Assembly (NCBI GenBank): GCA_036522835.1 | Contig: DATDFB010000034.1 | Coordinates: 4,383-68,382, forward strand | DNA: 64,000 nt | Source of the DNA: Thermoanaerobaculia bacterium | GTDB taxonomy: Bacteria > Acidobacteriota > Thermoanaerobaculia > Gp7-AA8 | Reading direction: 5' to 3' | Part shown: in pieces, positions 2,708-52,359 of the stretch | Position numbering within the stretch: position 1 is the stretch's first letter | Layout: each line of letters opens with the position of its first letter | Program-made: the position numbers and the translations under genes | Notes under the pieces: model-generated | Told to the model about the DNA's origin: nothing | Seen by the model: only the letters and a program-made list of their open reading frames with translations | Databases searched by the model: none

Positions 2708-3507
2708 CGGTTGGGCCGGAGGTAGAGCTTGCCGTGCGCGACGTCGAACGTCGTGGTGAAGCGCCGGAGCATCTCCATGCCCATGGCCGGGAACGGCGTC
2801 GCCGGGCCCCAGGAATCGCGAAACGTGAACGGCCCGAGGTGCACGGCGTCGAAGCGGCCGGAGACGGACTGGTAATCGCTGCCGAGTCCTCGGCCGAGCG
2901 TCGACTGGCGCACGACGCGCGCGCGCTTTGCGGCCTCGTCGCCGACGGCGTCGCTCGAGCCGGTGTCGATGCGCACGCGGCGCTCCACGCGCTCCTTGTC
3001 GTTCACGTCGATCGTCACGTTGACGAAGAGACGGTGGTTCGTCTCCTCCAGCGGCAACGCCACGGCATCGTTTGGCGGCCGGAACGTCCGCGGATCGAAG
3101 AAGCGGACGGTGGAGCGCTCGGGATCGAGCTCCACGACGAACGCCTCAAAGAAGTCGGCGCCGACGAGGCCGTGCGTCGTCTTCGGGATCGGGACGCCGC
3201 TGAGGTCGATCACCCACGGCTCCGCGATCCGCAGCGTCACCTTGCCGATGGCCATGTCGAGCGGCGGAGCCTTCTGCATGGCGACGTCGCCCTGGCCGGT
3301 GCCCTTGACCGGCGGCGCCGCCGTGACGGTCAGGCCGAGCTCTTTGACGAGGAACGGATCGATGACGCTGTGCGGCGCGCCGCTGTCGACCGCAAACCAG
3401 TAGGGGCCGTGGCCGGCCACGCGCACCGGGACGAAGAAGAGCCGGTCGTTGCGCCGCGCGTGTACCGAGCCGAGCAGGAGAACTGAAGCGAGAACGATTC
3501 GTAACAT
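2671..3507 (-). CDS. secreted retropepsin-like (pepsin-fold) aspartyl protease family protein
   Basis: Signal peptide MLRIVLASVLLLGSVHA. Two aspartyl-protease active-site-like motifs, AVDSGAP and RIDTGSS. Confidence 0.7.
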   Translation of the reverse strand: MLRIVLASVLLLGSVHARRNDRLFFVPVRVAGHGPYWFAVDSGAPHSVIDPFLVKELGLTVTAAPPVKGTGQGDVAMQKAPPLDMAIGKVTLRIAEPWVIDLSGVPIPKTTHGLVGADFFEAFVVELDPERSTVRFFDPRTFRPPNDAVALPLEETNHRLFVNVTIDVNDKERVERRVRIDTGSSDAVGDEAAKRARVVRQSTLGRGLGSDYQSVSGRFDAVHLGPFTFRDSWGPATPFPAMGMEMLRRFTTTFDVAHGKLYLRPNRHLTEPVPPPGG

Positions 3508-3537
3508 GCCCTCGAATCTCGGCTCAGGCCAGGGTGA

Positions 3538-4326
3538 ATGTCGATGGATGAACGATTGAATTTGCGTAGATTCGGCCCCTTCACGCTCGATCTGGAGAAC
3601 GAGCTGCTGCTGCGCGGCGGCGAGCGCGTGCCGCTGCAGCCGCAGCCGATGAAGGTGCTCCTGCTCCTAGGGGCGCGCGCCGGCGAGCTGGTGACGCGGC
3701 AGGAGCTGCAGCGCGCGGTGTGGGGCGAGGAGACGTTCGTCGACTTCAACCAGGGGCTGAACTGGTGTGTTGCCCGGATCCGCGACGTCCTCGGCGACGA
3801 CGCCGAGCACCCGCGCTTCATCGAGACCGTGCCGCGGAAGGGCTACCGCTTCATCGCGCCGGCCGAGGCGCCGGGGCCGGCGCGCCGGCCATGGCTGGCC
3901 GCCGTGGCGGTGCTCGCCGTCGTCTGCCTCGCGGTCATGCACCGGCAGGCGCCGGTGACGGTCGTGATCCTGCCCTTCGACAACTTCACCGGCGATCCGC
4001 GCAACGAAGCCGTGGCCGGCGCGGCGACGGAGGAGGTGATCAACCGCGTCGGCAGCGCCGATCCGTCGCGCCTCAAGGTCATCGACCGCCTGACCGCGGC
4101 AAAGTTCAAGCGCACCAACGAGTGCATCATCCACATCGGCCGCGCCTTGGGCGCCGACTTCGTCATGGAAGGATCGGTTCTCGACGGCCGTACCACCGCG
4201 GCGCTTTACCGCGTCGCCGACAATACCCAGGTGTGGGCGACGGCGGCGGAGACGCGCGCTTCCGCGGCGGCGATCTCCGCCAAGATCGCCACGACGTTTC
4301 TCGGCAATCCCTCACCGCACGGATAG
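3538..4326 (+). CDS. CadC/OmpR-family winged-helix transcriptional regulator with TM segment and periplasmic domain
   Basis: N-terminal OmpR/PhoB-type DNA-binding signature (FGPFTLDLENELLLRGGERVPLQPQPMKVLLLL...VPRKGYRF), followed by the hydrophobic segment WLAAVAVLAVVCLAV. Confidence 0.7.
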   Translation: MSMDERLNLRRFGPFTLDLENELLLRGGERVPLQPQPMKVLLLLGARAGELVTRQELQRAVWGEETFVDFNQGLNWCVARIRDVLGDDAEHPRFIETVPRKGYRFIAPAEAPGPARRPWLAAVAVLAVVCLAVMHRQAPVTVVILPFDNFTGDPRNEAVAGAATEEVINRVGSADPSRLKVIDRLTAAKFKRTNECIIHIGRALGADFVMEGSVLDGRTTAALYRVADNTQVWATAAETRASAAAISAKIATTFLGNPSPHG

Positions 4327-4329
4327 AAA

Positions 4330-4585
4330 TTCAGCAAACTCGCTGAAAACGGAAGAGCGCACGCTTGCAATGTAAGCAAACTCGCTGAAAATCGAAGAGC
4401 GCACGCTTGCAACGGAAGAGCGCACGCTTGCATCCGAAGCATTTTTCCTTGAGATCGAAGCGTGCGTCCTTCGATTTTCAGCGAACTCGCTTAACTTGGA
4501 AGCGTGCGCTCTTCCATTTTCAGCGAGTTTGCTGACGTTGCAAGCGGCCGTTCTTCGGTTGCAAGCGTCCGTTCTTCGGTTGCAT
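4330..4585. repeat. complex array of a ~37-bp unit (GCAAACTCGCTGAAAA-CGGAAGAGCGCACGCTTGCAA) in direct and inverted orientation
   Basis: There are 2.5 direct copies at 4330-4435, 2 inverted copies at 4450-4540, and 2 diverged inverted partial copies (GTTGCAAGCG-CCGTTCTTCG x2) at 4545-4585. The array lies in the 3'-3' intergenic region. Confidence 0.8.
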
Positions 4586-4613
4586 GGGGGACAGGCGCCC
4601 TCGCCTGTCCCCC
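4586..4613. repeat. perfect 12-bp-stem hairpin GGGGGACAGGCG-CCCT-CGCCTGTCCCCC (GGACAGGC-core hairpin family, copy 1)
   Basis: Seen directly. The same core recurs at 8772-8798 and 28627-28658. Confidence 0.85.
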
Positions 4614-4628
4614 GATCAAAGCGGGTCG

Positions 4629-5228
4629 TTAGTACTTCGGCGCGTAGGCGTTGACCATCACATTGCCGCCGTTCGTGGCCACGGTGGCGGTCACGACCTG
4701 CGGCGGGTACTGCGACGTGTAGCCCCAGAAGTAGCTCGAGTCGCCGTTACAGCCGTTCGTCGAGCCCCACACCGGAGCGCTGAAGTTGAAGCCGGAGTAG
4801 CCGGCGAACCAGTTGGCCCACGACAGGCCGACCGTGCCGAGGCCGCCGGCCGTCACGACGAAGACATGATCCGTGGCGTTCGCGTCGAAGTTGTAGTCGT
4901 ACGACAGGATCGGGCCGGTGGCCAGCGACACCGACGTCGCGCTCGGCGGATTCACCGCCCCCATCGCGCAGCGCAGATCGAGCCGGTATTCGTAGACCCA
5001 CTTCCCCGCCGCCGGCGAGCCCGCCTCCCCCTGGAAGATGCGCGACTGCAGGAACCCGCCGTTGAGCAGCGGCGACGACAGGTCGGTGACGGTCACGGTG
5101 CCGTCGGTGCTGAAGACGTAGTTGACGGCGGGGGCGGAGGTGTTGACCACGTTGAGCGCCGCCCGCGCCGGCGCGGCCACCATCGTCGAGGCGGCGATGG
5201 CGAGCATGATGAGATAGAGGCGAGTCAT
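4629..5228 (-). CDS. secreted hypothetical protein
   Basis: Start MTRLYLIMLAIAASTMVAAPARA (signal peptide) within the longer ORF 4629..5462. Gly/Ser/Thr-rich mature part. Confidence 0.5.
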   Translation of the reverse strand: MTRLYLIMLAIAASTMVAAPARAALNVVNTSAPAVNYVFSTDGTVTVTDLSSPLLNGGFLQSRIFQGEAGSPAAGKWVYEYRLDLRCAMGAVNPPSATSVSLATGPILSYDYNFDANATDHVFVVTAGGLGTVGLSWANWFAGYSGFNFSAPVWGSTNGCNGDSSYFWGYTSQYPPQVVTATVATNGGNVMVNAYAPKY

Positions 5229-5351
5229 TGTTTTTTCGATTCCTTCCTTTCGTCCGTTTTCGTGGGACGCGAAGTAGTGCAGAAACCGATGTAACCGTTT
5301 CCATCGATTGGTGACGCGCATCACGGTCGCGGTAAAATTCTTTTTCCACCC

Positions 5352-9413
<4,062 letters not shown>

Positions 9414-9516
9414 CCGGTGCTGGCGGCGGCATAGGTCGGCAACGCCGCCGCACGACGCTGGCTAATCGCTGTTAGCCGGACTGCCGCGATTTCCGACACT
9501 TAATGGGGCAACTACG

Positions 9517-9918
9517 CTATCTTCGATCGGAATCAGACGTTGTCCTCGGCGCCGGCTTATGCTCAAGTGTCACATTGAAATGCGACGACGGTGCCTTTAC
9601 GATTTTGGTGCTTCCATGGGTTTTCCAACCAGAAGCAATCACCTGTAAAGCAATATCGCCAACCGGCACACCTGAGAATTGGGCTCGGCCGCGTTTGTCA
9701 GTAAACAGCGACTCATTATATGAATCATCAGTGGTCGTTAAAAGCACGTTGGCGTTCTGAACTGCCTTGCTGTCACCAGTCACCAAGACCACGACGGCGG
9801 CTGTTATCGTCTTGGCGTCTTTCTCTTTGTCCTTATCTTTGGCTTTAGCCTTGCCCTGGGCGGCCGCATCCACCACGGAGCAAATGCAAATGATGACGCT
9901 GAGTAGGATCGTTAGCAT
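9517..9918 (-). CDS. small secreted protein with carboxypeptidase-regulatory-like (Ig-like) domain
   Basis: Start MLTILLSVIICICSVVDAAAQ (signal peptide). ..VLVTGDSKAVQNANVLLTTTDDSYNESLFTDKRGRAQFSGVPVGDIALQVIASGW.. resembles the CarboxypepD_reg fold. Lower GC than the flanks. Confidence 0.45.
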   Translation of the reverse strand: MLTILLSVIICICSVVDAAAQGKAKAKDKDKEKDAKTITAAVVVLVTGDSKAVQNANVLLTTTDDSYNESLFTDKRGRAQFSGVPVGDIALQVIASGWKTHGSTKIVKAPSSHFNVTLEHKPAPRTTSDSDRR

Positions 9919-9943
9919 CCGAAATCGACCGACGTCAACACGT

Positions 9944-10930
9944 CTATTGGCGTGCAACCAGCTTCTGGAAGATTTCGTCATAATAAGGTTTCTCCTTCAA
10001 AGCTGCACGGGAGCCCGGGAAGTATATCAACGTCACTTCAACCGAAACATCTCGCAGCTTCGTAACTACTAGTGCGCATCGTTCGCCGCCCAATAGCGGT
10101 ATATTTCGAATCATCGGGAAATCGAAAATTCCCACGTCCAAAACAGAATCGAGTTCATCGTCTGAATTATTACCGCGAACCGTTAGTCGAACCCGGATTG
10201 TCTTTTGTTTGATGTCGACTCGTAGTACGTCAACGGAAAACCGACGTGGTTGCTCACCGCCGCGCAAGGCGAGAGTCACGGAATCCAATGCCTGAATTCC
10301 TTCTGGCGGAACCTGTTTGTTCTCGTCTAAGTTAATAGTGCTATCTCGTTTAGCTCCTACCGATTCAAGCGCAGCCAGCTGCTGCTGATTCACCTTACTT
10401 GCGAGGGACTCGACCCGACGGCGCAATGGTTCGTTCTCCAGACCCTTCGCGCTCAACTCTGAGTATAAATGTTCAAAGAGCGGCGCCAAATCGAGCGAAT
10501 TGTGAAAATTGCGTGCAAGAAGATCCAGTTTGATAACCTTTTCACGAGCGGAGCTGTCATGCGTACTGGTAAGGAACGCATTCAGAGTCGTATTGAACAT
10601 CTCTTTTCGCAGCGCACTATCCGCAGCCTCTCGACTGCTCATTAACTGTGCGTACAAATTCACGCTAGCGGCTAGGCGTTGTTGTCGATCAAGATAGTCG
10701 GACGCCAAAACGCCGAGATAGGCAGTTAATCCAGCGACCAAAAGAGCGCCAACTGGCTTAAAAAGTATGTCAATCTTATCCCAGATGTCTTTTCCGGAAG
10801 GCGGCCCCTTCCCCTCGTCATTATTTGCCGCGGCACGCGCTTCCTCTGTCAACTTTGGCGGTTCGTTCACGCCCGCCGCCGATGTGGCGGCAGTCGAGCT
10901 CTCACTACCGACGGGCAAGGCCGTAGCCAT
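9944..10930 (-). CDS. hypothetical membrane-anchored protein (island gene)
   Basis: ORF 9944..10957 with a TM segment (LFKPVGALLVAGLTAYLGVLASDYL). Start set at MATALPV; 10957 is an alternative start. Lower-GC codon usage. Confidence 0.45.
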   Translation of the reverse strand: MATALPVGSESSTAATSAAGVNEPPKLTEEARAAANNDEGKGPPSGKDIWDKIDILFKPVGALLVAGLTAYLGVLASDYLDRQQRLAASVNLYAQLMSSREAADSALRKEMFNTTLNAFLTSTHDSSAREKVIKLDLLARNFHNSLDLAPLFEHLYSELSAKGLENEPLRRRVESLASKVNQQQLAALESVGAKRDSTINLDENKQVPPEGIQALDSVTLALRGGEQPRRFSVDVLRVDIKQKTIRVRLTVRGNNSDDELDSVLDVGIFDFPMIRNIPLLGGERCALVVTKLRDVSVEVTLIYFPGSRAALKEKPYYDEIFQKLVARQ

Positions 10931-11255
10931 GTGGGCCCCCCACAATCTCAAAGTCATACCTGACGGGCTCGTCGTAGGAATGCACTTTTGCGCGAGGTGT
11001 TACTTCCGGCGAGCCGATAAGTACTCGTAAGGTGCATGAGCCTTGTTCACGGACGTAAATTTTATAACCGCCGCCGGACTGCACAATGCCCGTATACACG
11101 TATTCGCCACTGCATCGTATTTCTAAATGTGCGCCATTCGCAGGGCGACCATCGCCGAAACGAATACTGCCGTAGATTACGTCAGCTTTCAGTTCCCCCA
11201 GCGAAAGTATAAGAAACACAATGCAACTTGTGATACCTATGCGCATCAAAAGCAT
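10905..11255 (-). CDS. small secreted hypothetical protein (island gene)
   Basis: MLLMRIGITSCIVFLILSLGELKA signal peptide. AGGAGA Shine-Dalgarno sequence 6 nt upstream on the minus strand. Confidence 0.5.
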   Translation of the reverse strand: MLLMRIGITSCIVFLILSLGELKADVIYGSIRFGDGRPANGAHLEIRCSGEYVYTGIVQSGGGYKIYVREQGSCTLRVLIGSPEVTPRAKVHSYDEPVRYDFEIVGGPHGYGLARR

Positions 11256-11354
11256 GGCTATCTCCTGCGGCAAACATGGACCGATTTGCGATTTGTATAT
11301 TGTGCCGCCGCCGTGATTGCGAGTCAATGCATTTAAAACGGAGCCTACAAGGCC

Positions 11355-11380
11355 GGCTAACTACCCTCACAAGCTGACAA
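11355..11380. repeat. left copy of 26-27-bp direct repeat GGCTAACT[A/G]CCCTCACAAGCTGACAA
   Basis: Matches 13063-13089 with 2 mismatches. Together the two copies bracket the non-coding region plus the DUF3800-like gene. Confidence 0.85.
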
Positions 11381-11405
11381 AAACCGCCGAGCCCTGGCTC
11401 GGCGG
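11377..11405 (-). terminator. intrinsic-terminator-like hairpin on the minus strand (CCGCCGAGCC-agg-GGCTCGGCGG followed by TTTTTGT)
   Basis: 10-bp GC stem with a 3-nt loop, followed by a T-run when read on the minus strand. This would terminate a minus-strand transcript coming from the 11400-12060 non-coding region. Confidence 0.5.
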
Positions 11406-11674
11406 CGGAGCCGCCTCGGGCGGCTCGAACTGCACGCACGCGGCACGTCGGCTGCAGTTCGCTCCCGCCAATTCGTGTTGGTCGCGGCAGCCGCCGCGCC
11501 GCTTTCGGGAGGCCGGCATGGTGGGCGGTTTTTGCAGCTTAGAGTGAGCGCGTTAGGCCGGCGCGCGACTTGCTCGAGAATCACGATGCACTAAGCACGA
11601 CACTCGCAAGCCTCGCGGACGCCGAAAATCCAGTTCATCGCCAGCGTCACGTTCCGCCCTCGCAGCGCCGCAGG

Positions 11675-11847
11675 GTGAGGAACGGGCCGCGACCAGCAAG
11701 ACGCGCCGCCGCCGAAGCGACAGTTTGGGCACTCGATCTGTGGGACTTGCATAATTGCACGCTCAGCGCAAAGTCGAGTGCCCAAACAGTCGCTTCACCG
11801 TCCGCCCGGCGCACGCTCGTCGCGGCCCGTTCCTCACGCGCCGCCCA
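11675..11847. repeat. nested long imperfect palindrome (~173 bp) inside a ~690-bp ORF-free region; possible structured RNA or recombination site
   Basis: Outer arms GTGAGGAACGGGCCGCGAC (11675-11693) and GTCGCGGCCCGTTCCTCAC (11829-11847). Inner arms CGACAGTTTGGGCACTCGA (11718-11736) and TCGAGTGCCCAAACAGTCG (11774-11792). Centre TTGCATAATTGCA. Confidence 0.8.
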
Positions 11848-12068
11848 CCCCTGCGCGTTCGGGCCATCCAGTTGGCTGTCACGCCGCTCGCAATCTCGCA
11901 CCTCAGTGCTCGCACCTGCGGCGCGGCGAGCGGCGCACCAGCCAACAGCATGGCCCTCGGCGCGCCCCACCGGCGCCGTCGCTGCTCCCGCCCGTTCATC
12001 CGCGATGGTCGGTTGAGGAAACATCAGCCGGCTGCGTTACGGGCTCCAAAGCGTATCCTTCTAGTAGG

Positions 12069-13046
12069 ATGCTAGAGCTCTACCTTGACGAAAGCGGAAC
12101 CCATGATACGAAGGACGAGCCACTCCTGATCATGGCGGGGTATCTGGCCGAGGAAGCGAAGTGGTCGCGGTTTAACCAGCGCTGGTCCGAGGTCCTTAGG
12201 CAATTCCAAATTGACCGTTTCCACATGAAGGATCTTAGGAATCTTCGCCACAAGCGGCTTAGGCACTTGTCTAGAACGCAGCGCTTAGAGCTGCTCACCG
12301 CATTAATCGCTATCACAGCCGAAACGGCGCTCATCGGCACGATAGCTTTTCTGCGACCTTCAGATTATCTCGCCGTGACTGATAAAAAATTCCGGAGCAG
12401 GTACGGTAGCGCATACGGGATGCTCGTTACGCTAACGCTTCTCAAGCTGGATTCGATTCTACTCAACCAAATCCATGAGCCAGATACAATCCGGGTGTTT
12501 ATCGAAGAAGGCCACGTAAACGCCGCTGACGTACTACGTCTGCTTCGATATTGGCAGGAGGATACCGCCGCAGCGCCGATAATATATGAAGGAGAGCCAG
12601 TAGAGACAATCCTTTCTGATCCCAGCCGAACATCTCGTATGCGAATCGCCGAGTTCGGCCTCGGATCAAAGACGGCAACGTATCCGCTCCATGCCTCTGA
12701 CATGCTCGGCTATTTCGCATCATTATCTCTGTCGTTTCGAATCGACGACGAATTCACAGCTGTATTCGACACTCTCCTGGGCCGCATACCCCACATTTCG
12801 ACTTTTTGGAATCGCAGCAGCCTGGAAGAACTCGTTCAACTCGTTCTGGCTGACGAGCGCGAAAAACAGGAAATTCGCGACGGCTGGAATGATATTCGGC
12901 GTTACCTCGCGTCGTATGACGTTAAGCTCAATGTTTTACCGTGGGGCGTGACCATGGATGCTCGCCATCTGTCCGAGGAAAAGTGGGCAGAGGTGCGTGC
13001 TCACATAAAAGGTGATTTAGAAAATCAGCAGAACCTAAAACGCTAG
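12069..13046 (+). CDS. DUF3800-like protein (N-terminal LYLDESG motif; predicted RNase-H-like fold family)
   Basis: Start MLELYLDESGTHDTKDEPLLIMAGYL matches the hallmark N-terminal motif of DUF3800. 325 aa, moderate GC. Start chosen within ORF 11778..13046 because the upstream part lies in the palindromic non-coding region. Confidence 0.65.
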   Translation: MLELYLDESGTHDTKDEPLLIMAGYLAEEAKWSRFNQRWSEVLRQFQIDRFHMKDLRNLRHKRLRHLSRTQRLELLTALIAITAETALIGTIAFLRPSDYLAVTDKKFRSRYGSAYGMLVTLTLLKLDSILLNQIHEPDTIRVFIEEGHVNAADVLRLLRYWQEDTAAAPIIYEGEPVETILSDPSRTSRMRIAEFGLGSKTATYPLHASDMLGYFASLSLSFRIDDEFTAVFDTLLGRIPHISTFWNRSSLEELVQLVLADEREKQEIRDGWNDIRRYLASYDVKLNVLPWGVTMDARHLSEEKWAEVRAHIKGDLENQQNLKR

Positions 13047-13062
13047 TCACAACCTCGGTAGC

Positions 13063-13089
13063 GGCCTAACTGCCCTCACAAGCTGACAA
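13063..13089. repeat. right copy of 26-27-bp direct repeat GGCCTAACTGCCCTCACAAGCTGACAA
   Basis: See left copy at 11355-11380. Lies immediately before the duplicated lhr 3' remnant. Confidence 0.85.
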
Positions 13090-13101
13090 CGGCCGCGTCA
13101 A

Positions 13102-13204
13102 CGTCATCAGCGCCGCCGACCCCCTCAACCTCGCCGGCGTCCGCGCACACCCCTCCACCCGCCGGGCGGCGGGTGCCGGTGGCGGCGGGGTTCGTGGGAC
13201 GCTA
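13102..13204 (+). pseudogene. degenerate duplicate of the lhr 3' end (displaced target copy / attR-like remnant)
   Basis: Matches lhr 9215-9275 and 9371-9413, including the synonymous differences gcc/gca and agg/cgc. Lacks ~95 bp internally and is out of frame. Confidence 0.75.
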
Positions 13205-13587
13205 GCAGTCTGCCAACTCGATCCTGAGAGCGGCTGCTGCTTCGCGCATTCGTCGATCGTAGCTGGCCAGGCTGATCTCTACGCCGAGCCCGCGGAGAAA
13301 GAGCAGCGTCGACAATGCAGCGCGTCGAGGGTGCGTACGGGCGATGGGAATGGCTCCGTCGCCCGCTGCAGTACATGCCGCGAAAGCTCGGCGATGGCCA
13401 GCGATTCGATGATTCTGCGCGCCGCTTCGCCGTGGGAGCGCTCCGCCCGCTGGCGATGAATCGCATTCCAGATTTCGTAATCGATGAGCCGGCTCGAAGC
13501 CAACTCTTCATCCCAAAAGGTGGGCGGCGGGCAACGGTCCTCTGCGAACAGCTCCGCGAGTACGACCGGGGTATCGACGTAGATCAT
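13202..13587 (-). pseudogene. vapC: PIN-domain toxin VapC with single-base frameshift near 13305
   Basis: ORF 13279..13689 gives MIYVDTPVVLAELF...RTLDALHC then stops. A -1 frame continues LSTLLFLRGLGVEISLASYDRRMREAAAALRIELADC to the stop at 13202-13204 (typical VapC C-terminus). Consistent with a 1-nt deletion in a TT run at ~13305, or with a sequencing error. Confidence 0.6.
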
Positions 13588-13880
13588 CGGTCTTCGCGGT
13601 CTGCGTCGAGATTCTGGAGAATCTTCTCCAGGGGAGCGATCGGACGTCGCGCAGGCGGCCGTTGACGCGCGACAGGTGGGGTCAGCCATTCGCGGCGGAT
13701 CGCGTCGGCAAGGATCGCGTCTTCGAGCGCTTCCGCCCGTCCCGTCGCGGGCGGCCCGATCTCCGCGACGACGCGATCGCGGTCGGAGACGAGAATCGTT
13801 TCACCCTGCGAAGCAAGCCGAATGTATTCACTCAGCTTGTTCTTGAGCACTTTGATGCCGACGGCACGCATGCGTGGCAA
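13584..13880 (-). CDS. Phd/YefM-family antitoxin (VapB partner of the frameshifted VapC)
   Basis: MRAVGIKVLKNKLSEYIRLASQGETILVSDRDRVVAEI. 4-bp overlap with the vapC start. Confidence 0.6.
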   Translation of the reverse strand: MPRMRAVGIKVLKNKLSEYIRLASQGETILVSDRDRVVAEIGPPATGRAEALEDAILADAIRREWLTPPVARQRPPARRPIAPLEKILQNLDADREDR

Positions 13881-13904
13881 CGTAGCTCCCGGTGGCTACT
13901 TTGT

Positions 13905-13942
13905 CAAAGCGCCCGGTACCCGCTCCCGCTTTCCGGGATCGC
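13905..13942. repeat. 38-bp direct repeat GTCAAAGCGCCCGGTACCCGCTC.CGCT.TCCGG.ATCGC, left copy
   Basis: Matches 14957-14993 with 3 mismatches. The right copy is the 3' end of the minus-strand gene 14957..15208. Confidence 0.8.
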
Positions 13943-13959
13943 ACTGGCGCGGTTCTTCG

Positions 13960-14145
13960 ATGCTCGTGCTCAAACGCCTGCGGAACTGGAGCTACGATAC
14001 GCTGGAGCAGGAGGTCCGCGCGAATCTGGTGTATCGGCAGTTCACGCGCGTCGGGACGGAGCGGGTGCCGGACGCAAAGTCGCTGATCCAGATTGGGCAG
14101 ATCCGATTCAACAACCGCAGGATGATGACGGCGGGCGCTTCCTGA
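13960..14145 (+). pseudogene. IS5-family (DUF772-type N-terminus) transposase fragment
   Basis: MLVLKRLRNWSYDTLEQEVRANLVYRQFTRVGTERVPDAKSLIQIGQ resembles IS5-family transposase N-terminal regions. Truncated after 61 aa with no DDE domain. Confidence 0.5.
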
Positions 14146-14339
14146 AAGCGCTGGCAATGGCTCCTACCGCGCGCCTGACCTACAAGGATCTCATCCGAGC
14201 AGAGCAGGCGTGAAGCGGCAGGGACGGGAAAACGTTTCCCGGGAGCGCAATCTGGTTCACTTTGACGGCGACTTCTGGAACGCCCAGCCGCTTGCGCTCC
14301 GCCAAGGTCATATGTACAGTCATCAGGTACAGGTGAGAC

Positions 14340-14621
14340 ATGGCCACAGAAACAACCTACACGCATGCTCGTGCAAACCTCAAAGCTCTTCTCGACGAGG
14401 CGTCAGACGGCCGCGACATCGTCATCATCCATCGCCGTGGCGCCGACGATGTTGCACTCATCGCGGTAGACGAACTGCGAAGCCTCATCGAGACGGCACA
14501 CCTACTTCGGTCTCCGAAGAACGCCGAGCGGCTGCTTCGTGCCTTAGCTCGTGCAAAGCGACGTAAGGGCCGTGCCCAGACGATGGCTAAACTGCGTCGC
14601 GATGTCGGTCTGGACGAGTAG
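14340..14621 (+). CDS. yefM: YefM/Phd-family type II antitoxin
   Basis: MATETTYTHARANLKALLDEASDGRDIVIIHRRGADDVALIAVDELRSLIETAHLLRSPKNAERL. Confidence 0.75.
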   Translation: MATETTYTHARANLKALLDEASDGRDIVIIHRRGADDVALIAVDELRSLIETAHLLRSPKNAERLLRALARAKRRKGRAQTMAKLRRDVGLDE

Positions 14622-14629
14622 CGCCGGCC

Positions 14630-14902
14630 GTGCCCAAGCAGAAAAGTCGTGCCGCTGTTTTCCAGGACGAGTTTCGTGAGGATCTTCGCTATTGGGTTCA
14701 GAACGATCGCAAGATTGCGCTCCGTGTCATCGACCTTGTCGAGGCCGTCATGCGCGACCCATTTATAGGAATCGGCAAGCCAGAGCCGCTGAAGTATCTC
14801 GCGTCGGGTGCGTGGTCTCGCCGTCTCACGCAGGAACATCGAATCGTATATGTCGTGTCAGACGACCGCATCGATTTTCTCCAAGCCAAATATCACTACT
14901 AA
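14630..14902 (+). CDS. yoeB: YoeB/Txe-family type II toxin (mRNA interferase)
   Basis: ..GIGKPEPLKYLASGAWSRRLTQEHRIVYVVSDDRIDFLQAKYHY matches the YoeB C-terminal signature. Lies immediately downstream of yefM. Confidence 0.75.
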   Translation: MPKQKSRAAVFQDEFREDLRYWVQNDRKIALRVIDLVEAVMRDPFIGIGKPEPLKYLASGAWSRRLTQEHRIVYVVSDDRIDFLQAKYHY

Positions 14903-14956
14903 ATAGGCCGCCCAGCGATCTTCCGAGTCGCAGGCGGGCGAAGCTCCGCGACGGCG

Positions 14957-14993
14957 TCAAAGCGCCCGGTACCCGCTCTCGCTCTCCGGAATC
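14957..14993. repeat. 38-bp direct repeat, right copy (native 3' end of gene 14957..15208)
   Basis: See 13905-13942. Confidence 0.8.
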
Positions 14994-15208
14994 GCGCTCT
15001 TTCTCCGCTCGAGCTTCGTCACGCGCCAGTCGCCGTGCTCGCGCACGACCTCGACGTGCACGGACGTGTGCTCGTCCACGTTGCCGGCCCAGGCGTAGCG
15101 CGCGCCGTCCCACTGCTCCGGCGCGAGGCCGCGCTCGCGCAGGCGCTCCTCGGCGTACTCGACGACCTGCTCGGGACCGATGTGATCGCAATTTGGCATG
15201 ATGGCCAA
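14957..15208 (-). CDS. small hypothetical protein
   Basis: MAIMPNCDHIGPEQVVEYAEERLRERGLAPEQWDGARYAWAGNVDEHTSVHVEVVREHGDWRVTKLERRKSAIPESESGYRAL. Its 3' end is duplicated at 13905-13942. Confidence 0.4.
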   Translation of the reverse strand: MAIMPNCDHIGPEQVVEYAEERLRERGLAPEQWDGARYAWAGNVDEHTSVHVEVVREHGDWRVTKLERRKSAIPESESGYRAL

Positions 15209-15210
15209 GT

Positions 15211-16179
15211 ATGCAACACCTTTTCCTCGCCCTGGCCCTGCTCCTTCCCGTCGAGCACGACTTCGTCGTCCGCGACTTCCACTTCAAGAGCGGCGAGACC
15301 CTCGCGGAGGTGCGGATCCACTACGTCACCCTCGGCGATCCCGCGGGAAAGCCCGTGCTCATCCTCCACGGCACCGGCGGCTCGTCGAAGCAGTTTCTGA
15401 ACGACCACTTCGCGGACGTCCTTTTCAAGGAAGGGGGCGCGCTCGACGCGCGGACGCACTTCATCGTCATCCCCGACAACGTCGGGCACGGGCAGTCGTC
15501 CAAGCCGAGCGACGGCCTGCGCGGGCGCTTCCCGCACTACGACTACGACGACATGGTCGAGCTCCAGCACCGCCTCCTCGTCGACGGCCTGCACCTCCAT
15601 CGCGTTCACCTCGTCATGGGCACGTCGATGGGCGGCATGCAGACGTGGATGTGGGGCGAGCATTGGCCGACGTTCATGGACGCGCTCCTGCCGCTGGCCA
15701 GCGCGCCGGCGCAGATCGCGGGGCGCAACCGCGTCTGGCGGAAGATGGCCATCGACGACCTGAAGCGCGGCGACGTCGCCGGCGCCGTGCAGCTCCTGAT
15801 GATCGCGACCTCGAGCCCGCTGCAGTGGCAGAAGAGCGGGCCGACGCGCGACGACGCCGACCGCTGGCTCGCCGAGCAGATGAAGAGTCGGCTGGCGAAT
15901 ACCGACGCCGACGACCTCCTCTACGCCCTCGAAGCGTCGCGCAACTACGACCCCGCGCCGGAGCTCGAGAACATCGCCGCGCCGCTCATCGCCATCAACT
16001 CCGCCGACGACTTCGTCAATCCGCCGGAGCTCGGCATCCTCGAGCGCGCCATCCAGCGCGTCAAGCGCGGGCGCTACGTCCTCATCCCCACGAGCGAGGC
16101 CACGCGCGGGCACGGCACGCACACGTGGGCGGCGCTGTGGCAGCAATACGTCAGGGAGCTCGATACACCACCGCGTTGA
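15211..16179 (+). CDS. alpha/beta-hydrolase, homoserine O-acetyltransferase (MetX)-like family
   Basis: ..VLILHGTGGSSKQF..HFIVIPDNVGHGQSSKP..GTSMGGMQTW.. matches the MetX-like alpha/beta hydrolase pattern. Confidence 0.65.
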   Translation: MQHLFLALALLLPVEHDFVVRDFHFKSGETLAEVRIHYVTLGDPAGKPVLILHGTGGSSKQFLNDHFADVLFKEGGALDARTHFIVIPDNVGHGQSSKPSDGLRGRFPHYDYDDMVELQHRLLVDGLHLHRVHLVMGTSMGGMQTWMWGEHWPTFMDALLPLASAPAQIAGRNRVWRKMAIDDLKRGDVAGAVQLLMIATSSPLQWQKSGPTRDDADRWLAEQMKSRLANTDADDLLYALEASRNYDPAPELENIAAPLIAINSADDFVNPPELGILERAIQRVKRGRYVLIPTSEATRGHGTHTWAALWQQYVRELDTPPR

Positions 16180-17230
16180 TGTGCATCCCCGCGCCGACGG
16201 AGGCGAAGACCACCACGTCGCCGCTCTTGATCTCGTGCGGCGGCAGCTTCCCCTTCGTAATCAGGTCGAGCAGCGTCGGCACCGTGGCCACGGAGCTGTT
16301 GCCGAGCCAGGAGATCGTCATCGGCATCACCTCGTCGTGCGGCGCCTTGTCGATCCCGTACAGCTTGTACAGCGCGTCGAGGATGGCCTCGTCCATCTTG
16401 CCGTTGGCCTGGTGGATCAGCACCTTCTTGACGTCGCCGATCGAGAGGCCGGCGCGGTCGAGCGTCTCCTTGATCGCCCCGGCCACGTTGTTGAGCGCGT
16501 ACTTGTAGAGCTTGCGCCCCTCCATCTTCAGGAAGAGCGCCTCGAGGAACACCTCTTCGTTGTACGACGGCCCCATGAAGAGCATGCCGGAGTGCTCGAT
16601 CGTGTCGGAGCGGACGGCGTGGGCGAGGATGCCGCCGCTCGTGTCGCGCGCTTCGAGGATCGTCGCGCCGGCGCCGTCGGCGTAGATCAGGCTGTCGCGG
16701 TCGTGCGGGTCGGAGATGCGCGAGAGCGTGTCGGCGCCGATGACCATGGCCCGCTTGATGTCGCCGGCGCGGATCATGGCGTCGGCCATGATCACTCCTT
16801 GCAGCCAGCCGGGGCAGCCGAAGATGACGTCGACGGCGACGGTCTTCGGGTTCCCGATCTTCAGCTTGGCCTTCACGCGCGCGGCGAGCGCCGGCACGAG
16901 GTCGGAGCGATGGCTGCGGGCCCTGACGTCGCCGAAGTTGTGGCCGAAGATGATGTAGTCGAGCGACTCGGGGTCGGTGCCGGACGACTCGATCGCGGCC
17001 TGCGCGGCCAGGAACCCGAGGTCCGAGGTGACCTGGTCCTTCTCCGCCCAGCGCCGCTCGCGGATCGTCGTGATGGCCTCGAACTGCTGGAGGATCTCCG
17101 CGTTCGGCTTGTCGATCGCCTTGCGGTCGGGGCCGCGGAACTCGTGGTGCAGAAAATGGTCGTTCGGGACGGCGTGTGACGGGATATGGCTCCCGGTGCC
17201 GGCTATCACGGAGCGCATGACGGGAATCAT
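16151..17230 (-). CDS. 3-oxoacyl-ACP synthase III (KAS III, FabH-like)
   Basis: VIAGTGSHIP..; CPGWLQG active-site Cys region; HQANGKMDE and GNSSVATVP motifs typical of FabH-family condensing enzymes. Start at MIPVMRSV. Confidence 0.8.
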   Translation of the reverse strand: MIPVMRSVIAGTGSHIPSHAVPNDHFLHHEFRGPDRKAIDKPNAEILQQFEAITTIRERRWAEKDQVTSDLGFLAAQAAIESSGTDPESLDYIIFGHNFGDVRARSHRSDLVPALAARVKAKLKIGNPKTVAVDVIFGCPGWLQGVIMADAMIRAGDIKRAMVIGADTLSRISDPHDRDSLIYADGAGATILEARDTSGGILAHAVRSDTIEHSGMLFMGPSYNEEVFLEALFLKMEGRKLYKYALNNVAGAIKETLDRAGLSIGDVKKVLIHQANGKMDEAILDALYKLYGIDKAPHDEVMPMTISWLGNSSVATVPTLLDLITKGKLPPHEIKSGDVVVFASVGAGMHINAVVYRAP

Positions 17231-50677: not shown

Positions 50678-52359
50678 CGCCGCTCCACGATGATGATGCC
50701 GCGATGCGCGTAGATGCGGCGGAAGAGGCGCAGCGGCGCGCCGTCATACGCGCGTTTCCACACGGTCGAGCGCGGCACCAGCTCCGGATCGAGGCCGAGG
50801 ATCGTCGCGGCGGAGAGCATGCCGCGCGGCCCCTCGTAGATGACGAAGCGGACGCCTTGCTCGTCGCAATAGCGCGCCAGCGACTCCTCGTGCGTGGTGA
50901 GGAAGGCGTCGTGCGCACGCTCGAAGGCGATGCGGTCGGGCATGGTGCCGAAGTTGTCGATGACGACGGGGCGCCCCGCCACGACGTCGAGCAGATGCCC
51001 GACCGACCACGGCGCGAGTACGCGTCCCGGCGGCTGCGTCTGCAGAAATCGTGCGGCCTCGAACCACGGCCGGAATGCCAGCGACGGCGGCCGCACGGGG
51101 TGCAGCATCCAGAGGGCGAATTGCACGGGCGGGGCGATGGCCACGGCGGCCAGCGCGAGCTGCCGCAGCCAGCGGCGCTCGAACGATACGGCGGCGATCG
51201 CGCCGGCGATGGCCAGAAGCGGCACGCCGACGCTCCAGAATCGCCGCGAAGTGATGGCGAGCAATAGATAGAGGATGGCGAACGGCGCGACGACGCGGTC
51301 CCGCCGCACGAGCGACCAGACGAGCACGGCGCCGATGCCGAGCCCCACCACGATCGAGAGGATGTCCTCGGTCGACCCGCGCCAGAGCGGCTGAAATTCC
51401 TGGATCGTACGCAGCCACGGCTCGCCGCCGAAGAAGGTCGAGCCTTCGAGGAGAGCTCCCGGCGCGGAGGGCGTGGCGAGGACGACACACGCGCCGGCGA
51501 GGAGGGCGAAAAAAGATCCCTCGCCCCGCTTGCGGGGAGAGGGTGGCGCCGAAGGCGCCGGGTGAGGGGCGATGCCTGCAGGATGGCGCCCCTCATCCGG
51601 CGCTGCGCGCCACCTGTACGCGCACGCCACCGCCGCCGCCCCGAAGAGCGCGGCGTGCGTCCAGCCGAGGAACCAGGCGTTGTCGGGGTAGCCGGGCGGG
51701 CGGGTGACGCGGTAGAGCGCGATGGCAACGGCGCCGATGCCGAAGGCGATCGCGCCGGCCCGGCCGTCGGTGCTGAAGAAGAGGATGACGAACACGAGTG
51801 CGGCGGCGACGAGGAGGGCGGTCTGCACGAACATGGCGGCGGTCAATGCCAGCGCGATCTGGAGTGCGGCGGCCATGCCGCCGCTGTCAGAGCCGCGGCA
51901 TGCCCGCCGCACTCCACAAATCATCCCCACCACGAAAATCGGCTCCGTCCAATGGTGGTCGATGCTGCCGATCCACGACTGCGTCACCACGAACGGCGAC
52001 GCCGCCAGCGCCGCGCCCGCCGCGATCGCCACCGCGCGTCCGAAGCGCCGGTCCATCCACAGCACGACCGCCGCGACGAAGAGCGCCGAGCCGATCGGCG
52101 GGATCCACTTCACGCGCGCCAGCACCTCGGCCTGCGTCGTCGCGCCGGTCAGATGGGCGATGCCGCCAAGGAGGCGGTCGTAGAGCGGAGGCCAGGGGCA
52201 GAAGGCGTTGCGGTCGGCGTCGAAGTCGACGAAGTGCGTCATCCGCTTGAGGTGATACAGCTCGTCGACCGGCGAGAGCTCCCACCACGCGGCGTTGCTC
52301 ACCCGGAAAGCCAGCGCGGTGGCGAACGCGACGATGACCAGAAACATCCTCACGCGCAC
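50674..52359 (-). CDS. polytopic membrane glycosyltransferase-like protein (PMT/ArnT/STT3-like fold, assignment tentative)
   Basis: 561 aa with 10 or more hydrophobic helices. The ORF is continuous across two in-frame repeat elements (family D at 51515-51615; family A at 51860-51916). ATGA overlap with the LMF gene. Confidence 0.5.
   Translation of the reverse strand: MRVRMFLVIVAFATALAFRVSNAAWWELSPVDELYHLKRMTHFVDFDADRNAFCPWPPLYDRLLGGIAHLTGATTQAEVLARVKWIPPIGSALFVAAVVLWMDRRFGRAVAIAAGAALAASPFVVTQSWIGSIDHHWTEPIFVVGMICGVRRACRGSDSGGMAAALQIALALTAAMFVQTALLVAAALVFVILFFSTDGRAGAIAFGIGAVAIALYRVTRPPGYPDNAWFLGWTHAALFGAAAVACAYRWRAAPDEGRHPAGIAPHPAPSAPPSPRKRGEGSFFALLAGACVVLATPSAPGALLEGSTFFGGEPWLRTIQEFQPLWRGSTEDILSIVVGLGIGAVLVWSLVRRDRVVAPFAILYLLLAITSRRFWSVGVPLLAIAGAIAAVSFERRWLRQLALAAVAIAPPVQFALWMLHPVRPPSLAFRPWFEAARFLQTQPPGRVLAPWSVGHLLDVVAGRPVVIDNFGTMPDRIAFERAHDAFLTTHEESLARYCDEQGVRFVIYEGPRGMLSAATILGLDPELVPRSTVWKRAYDGAPLRLFRRIYAHRGIIIVERR
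51515..51615. repeat. ~100-bp structured repeat element, copy 2 (same family as 8073-8190), in-frame inside the membrane GT-like gene
   Basis: CTCGCCCCGCTTGCGGGGAGAGGGTGGCGCCGAAGGCGCCGGGTGAGGGGCGATGCCTGCAGGATGGCGCCCCTCATCCGGCGCT. Read on the minus strand it encodes ..HPAPSAPPSPRKRGEGSFF... Confidence 0.8.
51860..51916. repeat. family-A 57-bp palindromic element, copy 3, in-frame inside the membrane GT-like gene
   Basis: TGGAGTGCGGCGGCCATGCCGCCGCTGTCAGAGCCGCGGCATGCCCGCCGCACTCCA. Encodes ..RRACRGSDSGGMAAALQ.. on the minus strand. Confidence 0.85.

What the first reader, a model, noticed from the sequence alone, without database searches (positions are those of the whole stretch)
9414..13205. 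Low-GC ~3.7-kb island integrated at the 3' end of lhr, with a displaced degenerate copy of the lhr 3' terminus
The last ~200 bp of lhr (9215-9275 and 9371-9413) recur at 13102-13204, immediately before the convergent vapC stop. The distal copy lacks ~95 bp internally and is out of frame. The two copies differ by synonymous changes (gcc/gca at Ala; agg/cgc at the final Arg), as expected if an incoming element supplied a replacement 3' end and the native end was displaced.

Between the two copies the sequence is visibly AT-richer than the ~70% GC flanks. It carries three small secreted/membrane proteins on the minus strand plus the DUF3800 cassette. No integrase or transposase is present.

A protein-gene 3' end used as an integration target with 3'-end restoration is the tRNA-island logic applied to a helicase gene.
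Basis: seen in the sequence. Interest (0 to 1): 0.6.

Follow-up and report, generated by a model that had tools for sequence, protein, structure and literature searches.

The report
Integron cassettes beside duplicated lhr end
The low-GC "island" after the lhr helicase gene is two integron gene cassettes with unusually long 204-nt recombination sites, joined by an irregular recombination event onto a neighbouring toxin-antitoxin version of the same locus, which left a broken spare copy of the helicase gene's end; it is a clear natural example of a known kind of element, not a new integration system.

Summary
The last 213 bp of lhr (9202-9414) recur at 13089-13206 with a 95-bp internal deletion. 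The DNA between the copies is foreign: GC3 is 0.52-0.57 against 0.90 in host genes. A 97%-identical relative (L132) has lhr abutting vapC with nothing in between.

The island is not an integrase-type island. It is two integron gene cassettes: 9472-11552 and 11553-~13089. They are bounded by members of a 204-nt attC family (RYYYAAC...GTTRRRY). This family forms same-strand arrays of up to 8 sites in more than 120 soil-metagenome contigs. In 101 of 106 neighbouring pairs, the bases after G|TT of one site are the reverse complement of the bases before AAC of the next site. That is the signature of a cassette circle junction.

A second relative (L134) has the same lhr end (AGG TAG) and the same ~58-bp post-lhr segment. 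It diverges from the window exactly at G|TT (9471/9472). That segment therefore acts as an attI-like insertion site.

The window is a hybrid. A cassette-bearing allele, cut at nt ~26 of its second attC, is joined illegitimately to a vapBC allele. No integrase lies in the 64 kb.

Cassette 2 carries a conserved, covarying 335-nt hairpin element of unknown function.

The parts
5352..9413 (+). lhr (Lhr-type helicase, 1353 aa), intact; ends GGA AGG TAG
   Evidence: Pfam DEAD, Helicase_C, DEAD_assoc, WH_Lhr, WH3/WH4_Lhr. GC3 0.90.
9202..9414 (+). Proximal (functional) copy of the repeated lhr 3' end
   Evidence: the repeat finder D1/D2. The same AGG TAG end occurs in L134 and L009.
9415..9471 (+). 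Post-lhr segment with an attI-like or secondary cassette insertion site. It holds the inverted pair GGCTAAT (9460-9466) / GTTAGCC (9471-9477). The crossover lies between G9471 and T9472.
   Evidence: L134 shares this segment and diverges from the window exactly after G|TT. GTTAGCCGG is the reverse complement of the bases before the TAAC of attC1. It has no similarity to the 204-nt attC profile.
9472..11552 (+). Cassette 1 (2081 bp including attC1), GC 0.51. It carries three minus-strand genes.
   Evidence: Boundaries from the G|TT rule. ORFs. GC3 0.52-0.56.
9517..9981 (-). Secreted CarboxypepD_reg-domain protein (154-aa ORF; probably 133 aa, starting at 9918, with a signal peptide)
   Evidence: Pfam PF13620, 3.9e-9. 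The 133-aa gene call is in L133.
9944..10957 (-). 337-aa protein with one predicted membrane helix; no family match
   Evidence: No hit in Pfam, NCBIfam or PADLOC.
10905..11255 (-). 116-aa protein with an N-terminal signal-like segment. A promoter-like TTGACT-17-CACAAT lies at 11327-11299.
   Evidence: Gene calls in L001, L002 and L133. Promoter scan.
11355..11558 (+). attC1: a complete 204-nt attC (R'' GGCTAAC at 11355-11361; R' GTTAGGC at 11552-11558). It contains a minus-strand terminator-like hairpin at 11406-11383.
   Evidence: nhmmer E=3.6e-62 against a profile of 114 attCs. DNA fold z = -4.6. Covarying internal stems. Terminator scan.
11553..13089 (+). Cassette 2, truncated inside its own attC
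   Evidence: The R' of attC1 (GTTAGGCCG) is the reverse complement of the bases before the TAAC of attC2.
11656..11991 (+). Conserved 335-nt GC-rich multi-hairpin leader element (module A about 11673-11837, module B about 11861-11956)
   Evidence: nhmmer E=1.7e-94. There are 20 full copies and many half copies in other cassettes with unrelated cargo. 17 of 92 pairs show compensatory changes, against 3.8 in shuffles. No Rfam match.
12069..13046 (+). DUF3800-family protein (325 aa), the cargo of cassette 2
   Evidence: Pfam PF12686, 21.1 bits at a cut-off of 21. GC3 0.57.
13064..13089 (+). attC2 remnant: only profile positions 1-26 (R'' and left arm)
   Evidence: nhmmer alignment. D3 repeat.
13089..13206 (+). 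Displaced native lhr 3' remnant (CGC TAG) with a 95-bp internal deletion at 13162/13163 and two private substitutions
   Evidence: The CGC end overlapping the vapC stop is as in L132 and L003.
13202..13587 (-). vapC (PIN), frameshifted by a 1-nt deletion near 13314/13315
   Evidence: Pfam PIN. Alignment with L003. The same truncated gene call appears in L010.
13584..13871 (-). vapB / Phd-type antitoxin (95 aa)
   Evidence: Weak Pfam PhdYeFM hit. Source name 'prevent-host-death protein'.

Best explanation
**What it is.** The island is a short integron cassette array with no integrase nearby (CALIN-type). It sits at an attI-like site 58 bp after the lhr stop codon.
- Cassette 1 (9472-11552) carries three secreted or membrane proteins, read from their own promoter on the opposite strand.
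- Cassette 2 (11553-~13089) carries a structured 335-nt leader and a DUF3800 gene.
- Each cassette ends in a 204-nt attC hairpin of a homogeneous family typical of a sedentary chromosomal integron of soil Thermoanaerobaculia/Acidobacteriota.

**How the cassettes moved (shown indirectly).** Cassettes of this family have moved as circles by recombination at G|TT.

**How the present locus arose (inferred).** In this species group the lhr-to-geneX intergenic spot exists in alternative alleles:
- Allele A: lhr(AGG TAG) - site - cassettes (L134).
- Allele B: lhr(CGC TAA) overlapping vapC-vapB (L132, L003).
- An empty form (L009).

The window is a hybrid of A and B. DNA of one allele recombined with a chromosome carrying the other, through one homologous exchange and one illegitimate joint. 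That joint links nt ~26 of the second attC to lhr position 9202. This could have happened by homology-facilitated illegitimate recombination, or equivalently by Campbell insertion of a circle closed at that joint.

The result kept an intact lhr from allele A and stranded allele B's last 213 bp of lhr next to vapC. The stranded copy then decayed, gaining a 95-bp deletion and two substitutions.

The integrase that moves the cassettes must act in trans from elsewhere in the genome.
For: **The units are attC sites and the segments are cassettes**
- The left-arm motif occurs in more than 120 metagenome contigs.
- A profile search finds 261 sites in 120 loci. 64 loci have 2 or more sites, the maximum is 8, and sites within a locus are never on both strands.
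- Median spacing is 1346 bp.
- The ends are RYYYAAC and GTTRRRY.
- The 5 nt after GTTA of site i match the reverse complement of the bases before TAAC of site i+1 in 101/106 pairs. For the same site the figure is 19/152, and for site i+2 it is 9/64.
- The window obeys the same rule at 9471, 11552 and 13064.

**The DNA is foreign**
- GC3 is 0.52-0.57 against 0.90 in host genes.

**Empty site**
- L132, 97% identical downstream, has a full in-frame lhr end (CGC TAA) overlapping vapC. L003 has the same arrangement.

**Allele A exists independently**
- L134 (94-96% identical) has AGG TAG, the same post-lhr segment, and a different sequence from G|TT onward.
- L132 and L134 come from the same sample.

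**The right junction is illegitimate**
- Only nt 1-26 of the attC profile remain, and microhomology is at most 2 nt.

**No integrase**
- tblastn with an IntI1 probe finds nothing in the window or in 130 loci.

**Same style of scar nearby**
- 13903-13945 repeats 14956-14998 (the 3' end of geneX). These copies flank a DUF772 transposase fragment plus yefM-yoeB.

**Literature**
- CALINs and single cassettes outside integrons are common, and IntI can insert cassettes at GWT genome sites (10.1101/2022.09.11.507474).
- Acidobacteria chromosomal attCs are known (PMC8352920).
Against: - No cognate IntI was found, so integrase activity on these sites is inferred only from sequence signatures.
- The window holds just one complete and one truncated attC.
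- Continuity between cassettes 1 and 2 runs through attC1. Three other assemblies (L001, L002, L133) end inside attC1 and L010 begins there. Cassettes could therefore have been collapsed in the window's assembly.
- Which allele was donor and which recipient cannot be decided, nor whether the intermediate was linear or circular.
- Both lhr copies share a TAG stop, whereas L132, L003 and L009 have TAA. The two parents were therefore very close, or the copies have undergone gene conversion.
- The 58-bp post-lhr segment has no homologue in the other loci. It could be a remnant of an unrelated attC rather than an attI-type site.
- No recombination breakpoint is visible inside lhr.
Confidence: 0.78

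Rival explanations
1. One reading: an integrative island that uses the lhr 3' end as its attachment site. The island carries a replacement 3' end in its attP and is moved by a site-specific integrase encoded elsewhere.
For: Direct repeats of the gene end flank foreign DNA. The gene is restored and the native end displaced. An empty site exists in relatives.
Against: The right repeat abuts a truncated attC with no shared core. The 'replacement end' plus its 58-bp tail is a chromosomal allele in L134 carrying a different cassette. The internal units are integron cassettes with their own boundaries. A second, unrelated duplication scar at geneX has the same style.
Confidence: 0.05
2. A purely intragenomic origin. 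The lhr 3' end was first duplicated in tandem in a vapBC-type chromosome. Cassettes were then inserted between the copies by the integron integrase at a secondary GTT site.
For: The two copies are nearly identical and share a private TAG stop. IntI can insert cassettes at GWT sites.
Against: This does not explain the truncated attC2 fused directly to lhr nt 9202. It does not explain the AGG codon plus the 58-bp tail, which exist together in L134 without vapBC.
Confidence: 0.1
3. An assembly chimera of co-occurring strains (allele A and allele B), joined through the shared lhr end or through the repeated attC.
For: This is a metagenome-assembled contig. Alleles A and B co-occur in one sample. 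Three other assemblies break inside attC1.
Against: The attC2-stub::lhr joint, the 95-bp deletion and the geneX-fragment::DUF772 joint share no k-mers that could mislead a de Bruijn assembler. They also lie on an independent contig, L010. The DUF3800 protein with the same neighbours is on three contigs, held by NCBI, ENA and JGI. Only the join inside attC1 is uncertain.
Confidence: 0.04
4. The 204-nt units are a palindromic repeat or MITE family unrelated to integrons, and the low-GC segments are ordinary variable genes between them.
For: No integrase was found. The units are about twice the consensus length of the published Acidobacteria attC model (106 nt) and have a conserved core rather than a variable loop.
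Against: A MITE or REP element would have self-complementary ends. Here the outer bases pair with the next unit (101/106), not with the same unit (19/152). The units also show strict same-strand arrays, about one gene per spacer, and RYYYAAC/GTTRRRY ends.
Confidence: 0.03

Closest known systems
CALIN / SALIN (clusters of, or single, attC sites lacking an integron integrase; Cury et al. 2016, PMC4889954; Loot et al., 10.1101/2022.09.11.507474)
   Same: Cassettes with attC sites in a chromosome with no intI nearby, in a small array (two cassettes, the commonest CALIN size), inserted at a G|TT site.
   Different: One attC is truncated. The array is welded to a duplicated host-gene end. The insertion site carries different first cassettes in different strains, which is attI-like behaviour. 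The attCs are 204 nt long.
Sedentary chromosomal integron arrays with homogeneous attCs (e.g. the Vibrio cholerae superintegron with VCR repeats; PMC12614218)
   Same: A highly homogeneous attC family (about 80% mean column identity). Long same-strand arrays of about 1.3-kb cassettes in related contigs. Cargo is mostly of unknown or nuclease-like function.
   Different: No integrase or attI platform was seen in any fetched contig. The attC is about 204 nt with a conserved multi-hairpin core, whereas the variable part reported for known attCs is 20-100 nt. The published Acidobacteria attC model has a 106-nt consensus.
Genomic islands integrated at gene or tRNA 3' ends by tyrosine integrases
   Same: An intact gene end is supplied by incoming DNA, a partial native copy lies at the far side, and relatives have an empty site.
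   Different: There is no integrase and no att core. The junction lies inside a truncated attC. The supplied end belongs to an alternative chromosomal allele.
Homology-facilitated illegitimate recombination / Campbell-type single-crossover insertion (de Vries & Wackernagel 2002; cited from my own knowledge, not read here)
   Same: One homologous anchor plus one joint with little or no microhomology. The anchor segment ends up duplicated.
   Different: Inferred from the end product only. The process, donor and recipient were not observed.

Membership tests
Integron gene cassette / attC site | Imperfect palindrome bounded by R'' RYYYAAC and R' GTTRRRY | tested here: met
   attC1 has GGCTAAC...GTTAGGC. 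The family consensus is GCCTAAC...GTTAG[G/C]C in 60-114 aligned sites. DNA fold z = -4.6.
Integron gene cassette / attC site | Crossover at G|TT, so that the bases after GTT belong to the next cassette and pair with that cassette's own R'' | tested here: met
   101/106 neighbouring pairs match, against 19/152 for the same site and 9/64 for site i+2. The window's three boundaries obey the rule. L134 diverges from the window exactly at G|TT.
Integron gene cassette / attC site | Arrays of co-oriented attCs, each following about one ORF | tested here: met
   261 sites in 120 loci, none with mixed strands, median spacing 1346 bp. The largest ORF is co-oriented in 13 of 15 cassettes examined. Cassette 1 of the window is an exception, with three reverse-oriented genes.
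Integron gene cassette / attC site | Asymmetric extrahelical bases and an unpaired spacer between the R and L boxes in the folded strand | tested here: inconclusive
   Conserved asymmetries are visible: a 3-nt AGA/TCT bulge and a 1-nt A/T bulge between the arms. Their equivalence to canonical extrahelical bases was not established.
Complete integron | intI gene with an adjacent attI and Pc promoter next to the array | tested here: not met
Upstream of the array is lhr.
Complete integron | Recombination of the sites by the cognate IntI | not testable with these tools
   This needs in vivo or in vitro recombination assays.
CALIN (Cury et al. 2016) | At least two attC sites within a few kb with no integron integrase nearby | tested here: met
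   One complete attC and one truncated attC lie 1.7 kb apart, with a further G|TT boundary at 9471. No integrase was found. Membership is borderline because the second site is only a 26-nt stub.
Integrase-mediated island at a gene 3' end | A site-specific recombinase gene at or near one island border | tested here: not met
   The only transposase-like piece is a DUF772 fragment outside the island, at about 13960-14100.
Integrase-mediated island at a gene 3' end | Direct repeats that are the att core and delimit the mobile unit | tested here: not met
   The repeats are 213 and 118 bp of coding sequence. The right repeat abuts a broken attC. The mobile-unit boundaries are the G|TT sites.

The most novel reading that the evidence does not exclude
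Two readings remain possible.

(1) The ~58-bp segment after lhr is a free-standing attI-type docking site. It recruits different cassettes in different strains with no integrase of its own, making it a 'satellite' integron platform served in trans.

(2) The conserved, covarying 335-nt two-hairpin element that heads cassette 2, and whose full form or half-modules occur 43 times in 34 of the 120 related loci, is a new class of cassette-associated structured nucleic acid (RNA or folded single-stranded DNA). It would control expression or recombination of cassettes in a lineage whose 204-nt attCs exceed the 20-100-nt variable-part range reported for known attCs.
Probability: 0.3. Interest if true: 0.65.

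Novelty: new member of a known kind. Interest (0 to 1): 0.42.

Why it matters
- **Origin of CALINs.** How cassette clusters come to lie outside integron platforms is still debated. The options are integrase loss, rearrangement, or insertion at genome sites. This locus offers all the pieces in closely related strains: the empty allele, the cassette-bearing allele with a variable first cassette, the toxin-antitoxin allele, and a hybrid joined by one illegitimate junction. It shows that cassettes also spread by ordinary homologous and illegitimate recombination between alleles of a hotspot.
- **A hard-to-detect attC family.** The locus points to an abundant soil Acidobacteriota attC family of about 204 nt. 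From memory, and not verified here, IntegronFinder's default maximum attC size is 200 bp, so these sites may sit at or beyond that limit.
- **An uncharacterised element.** It also points to a conserved structured element in cassette leaders that has not been described.

For the original claim of a new way of targeting a protein-gene 3' end, the result is negative.

Tried and rejected
- **Integrase search.** tblastn with an IntI1 probe found nothing in the window or in any of 130 loci. An earlier regex search for tyrosine-recombinase motifs also found nothing.
- **RNA families.** Rfam at gathering threshold over the whole window, and in E-value mode over 11300-12150, gave only chance miRNA-like hits. 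There are no tRNA or tmRNA genes.
- **Cargo function.** PADLOC and NCBIfam gave no hit for the four cassette proteins.
- **Other contexts for the cargo.** blastn and tblastn of both cassettes against all loci hit only the same locus.
- **The 58-bp post-lhr segment.** It has no homologue apart from L001, L002 and later L134, and no similarity to the attC profile.
- **Recombination breakpoint in lhr.** Sliding identity against L009 and L003 is flat, so no breakpoint is visible.
- **Exact VapB look-up.** This returned only the same arrangement. Cluster members were needed to reach L132 and L134.
- **A peptide in the leader element.** The conserved start MALGAPHRRRRCSRP is followed by tails of 16-105 aa, so the conservation is judged to be at nucleotide level.
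- **Strand of the leader element.** A-C mismatches are as common as G-U pairs, so the functional strand is undecided.
- **Published Acidobacteria attC model.** Reading it yielded only its length (106) and its 30% sensitivity.

Full report
**1. Observation**

The window comes from an 81,973-bp contig of a soil 'MAG TPA: Thermoanaerobaculia bacterium'. lhr (5352-9413, +) is an intact Lhr-type helicase gene.

The repeat finder shows that 9202-9275 and 9369-9414 recur at 13089-13162 and 13161-13206, at 97% and 96% identity. The distal copy lacks 95 bp, with a 2-nt GC overlap at the deletion ends, and is out of frame.

The copies differ in four ways:
- A synonymous Ala change at 9260/13147.
- AGG versus CGC in the last codon.
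- The 95-bp deletion itself.

The distal TAG overlaps the stop codon of a convergent vapC.

The intervening DNA is compositionally foreign. GC3 is 0.52-0.57 for its four ORFs against 0.90-0.93 for lhr, geneX and the hydrolase. Cassette 1 has GC 0.512, while no 1900-nt window outside the locus falls below 0.640. The island is not homogeneous, though. Positions 11355-11558 and 11559-12068 have host-like GC of about 0.68.

**2. What the island is made of**

A second repeat, TAACTRCCCTCACAAGCTGACAA, occurs at 11358 and 13067. The first copy is the left arm of a 204-nt imperfect palindrome (11355-11558) whose ends read GGCTAAC...GTTAGGC. This matches the RYYYAAC/GTTRRRY cores of integron attC sites, and the DNA fold has z = -4.6.

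Many hold 2-7 copies on one strand, 1.2-1.8 kb apart. A profile built from 114 unique units (model length 204; unit lengths mostly about 199-207) finds 261 sites in 120 loci. 64 loci have two or more sites, 23 have four or more, the maximum is 8, and no locus has sites on both strands.

The decisive test separates integron cassettes from ordinary palindromic repeats. The five bases after GTTA of one site equal the reverse complement of the bases before TAAC of:
- the next site in 101 of 106 cases,
- the same site in only 19 of 152 cases,
- the site after next in 9 of 64 cases.

This is what results when each cassette was once a circle closed at G|TT.

The window obeys the rule three times. GTTAGCCGG at 9471 pairs with the left flank of attC1. 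GTTAGGCCG at 11552 pairs with the left flank of the second site at 13064.

The island therefore consists of:
- Cassette 1 (9472-11552), with three minus-strand genes: a secreted CarboxypepD_reg protein, a 337-aa membrane protein and a small secreted protein. A promoter-like site lies at 11327-11299.
- Cassette 2 (11553 to about 13089), with a GC-rich leader and a DUF3800 gene.

The second attC is cut after profile position about 26 and fused to lhr sequence with at most 2 nt of microhomology.

No IntI-like gene lies in the window or in any fetched locus. Chromosomal attCs in Acidobacteria are documented, but the published model has a 106-nt consensus. The variable part of known attCs is reported as 20-100 nt. 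This family is therefore unusually long, and its internal hairpins are conserved and covary.

**3. Comparative evidence for how the locus arose**

Four relatives give four states of the same locus.

| Relative | Similarity to window | State after lhr |
|---|---|---|
| L009 | Lhr 91% | lhr(AGG TAA) runs straight into the downstream small gene |
| L003 | Lhr 84% | lhr(CGC TAA) overlaps vapC-vapB |
| L132 | 97% nt identity to window 13394-17000 | Complete, in-frame lhr end (CGC TAA) overlapping vapC, then vapB, a geneX fragment, yefM-yoeB, geneX and the hydrolase. This is the empty site in a very close relative. |
| L134 | 94-96% nt identity to window 2786-9481; same sample as L132 | lhr ends AGG TAG, followed by the same post-lhr segment. 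It diverges from the window exactly after G|TT (9471/9472) into a different low-GC sequence. |

Three conclusions follow:
- The functional lhr end of the window, plus its 58-bp tail, is a pre-existing chromosomal allele ('A'). Its tail is a cassette docking site used differently in different strains.
- The distal remnant is the native end of a vapBC allele ('B'). Its CGC supplies the C of the vapC stop codon.
- The window is A joined to B by one illegitimate junction, between the attC2 stub and lhr nt 9202.

One homologous exchange plus this junction suffices to produce the structure. The route could be homology-facilitated illegitimate recombination after DNA uptake, or Campbell insertion of a circle closed at that junction. 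Donor and recipient cannot be assigned. No breakpoint is visible within lhr, and both copies share a private TAG stop, so the parents were close.

A second scar of the same style lies 0.7 kb to the right. The last 43 nt of geneX (14956-14998) recur at 13903-13945. These copies flank a DUF772 transposase fragment and yefM-yoeB. L132 shares this scar, so it is older. The locus looks like a hotspot where alternative alleles have been stacked repeatedly.

**4. Reliability**

The attC2-stub::lhr joint, the 95-bp deletion and the geneX-fragment joint are present on an independent contig, L010. They share no sequence that could mislead a de Bruijn assembler.

The one weak link is continuity through attC1. 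Contigs L001, L002 and L133 all end inside it, and L010 starts inside it. Cassettes may therefore be missing between cassettes 1 and 2 in the window's assembly.

**5. The leader element**

The GC-rich stretch 11656-11991 of cassette 2 is a conserved 335-nt element. It occurs at 82-87% identity in 20 full copies, and in all 43 times (full copies plus separate half-modules) in 34 loci. It is always co-oriented with the attCs. The profile starts about 100 nt after R' in most copies (70 to about 235 nt in four copies).

The cargo downstream of it is unrelated from copy to copy. Examples are EVE, Mrr_cat and HNH domains, DUF3800, and proteins of unknown family.

Its stems are conserved while its terminal loops share no similarity. 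17 of 92 predicted pairs carry compensatory changes, against 3.8 +/- 1.6 in shuffles and 1-4 in slid controls. Rfam has nothing like it. The strand and the function are unresolved.

**6. Verdict**

The proposed mechanism, integrase-type use of a protein-gene 3' end, is not supported.

The feature is a new member of a known kind: integron cassettes outside a platform (CALIN-like). It has three notable peculiarities: 204-nt attCs, an integrase-less docking site with strain-variable first cassettes, and an uncharacterised structured leader.

Noticed in passing
window 11656-11991 (also L061, L075, L125, L027, L129, L093, L116, L090, L050, L082, L121, L040, L112, L111, L107 and others): A conserved 335-nt GC-rich two-hairpin element sits in the 5' part of many otherwise unrelated cassettes. 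Its stems are conserved with compensatory changes (17 pairs against 3.8 expected) and its loops are hypervariable. The half-modules also occur alone. There is no Rfam match, and strand and function are unknown.
   Followed up: partly
window 13903-13945 and 14956-14998, with the insert at 13946-14955: A second duplication scar at the same locus. The last 43 nt of the minus-strand geneX (14957-15208) are repeated at 91% identity on either side of a DUF772 transposase fragment plus an intact-looking yefM-yoeB pair. L132 shares it, with a longer 104-nt fragment.
   Followed up: partly
window 13202-13587 (-); L132: vapC is frameshifted by a 1-nt deletion near 13314/13315, and the same is seen in the independent contig L010. 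In the close relative L132, vapC has a separate internal deletion of about 80 nt. vapB is intact in both. The toxin is decaying independently in two lineages.
   Followed up: partly
window about 8070-8186 within lhr; also 51521-51539: The window's lhr carries an in-frame insertion of about 110 nt. It is built of palindromic CTCCCCGCAAGCGGGGAG units and encodes ...PLPASGERVAEGRVRG...SPQAGRR. The insertion is absent from L134, whose Lhr is 37 aa shorter (1316 vs 1353 aa). L009 and L003 also show a local identity drop at about 8008-8300, consistent with its absence there, but this was not checked directly. Another copy of the unit lies at 51.5 kb. It looks like a small MITE/REP-like repeat tolerated inside the helicase gene.
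   Followed up: partly
window 11406-11383 (-), inside attC1; conserved in the attC family: Each attC contains a GC-rich hairpin followed by TTTTTG on the strand opposite to the cassettes (CAAAAACCGCC...GGCGGTTTTTG symmetry). It looks like an intrinsic terminator against antisense transcription, and possibly acts in both directions. If so, each cassette would need its own promoter.
   Followed up: no
First ~35 nt of many cassettes (e.g. window 11553-11590; L075, L069, L093, L050): Right after G|TT there is a semi-conserved motif, TTAGGCCGATCGCACGAGnTGCGCGnAATCACGA. It contains a small palindrome followed by a -10-like AATCAC/TATAAT. It may be a cassette-borne promoter or a protein-binding site.
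   Followed up: no
L026, L028, L055, L070, L088, L052, L045: Single or few cassettes of the same attC family (GC 0.54-0.57) sit between high-GC core genes at several other chromosomal sites. Each starts at a GTTAG that matches its own attC flank. Dispersal of cassettes outside large arrays therefore seems common in this lineage.
   Followed up: partly
L001, L002, L133 (ends) and L010 (start), equivalent to window ~11404: Three independent metagenome contigs (L001, L002, L133) end at attC profile position ~51, and a fourth (L010) begins there. This is a practical sign that the repeat family fragments short-read assemblies of these genomes.
   Followed up: yes
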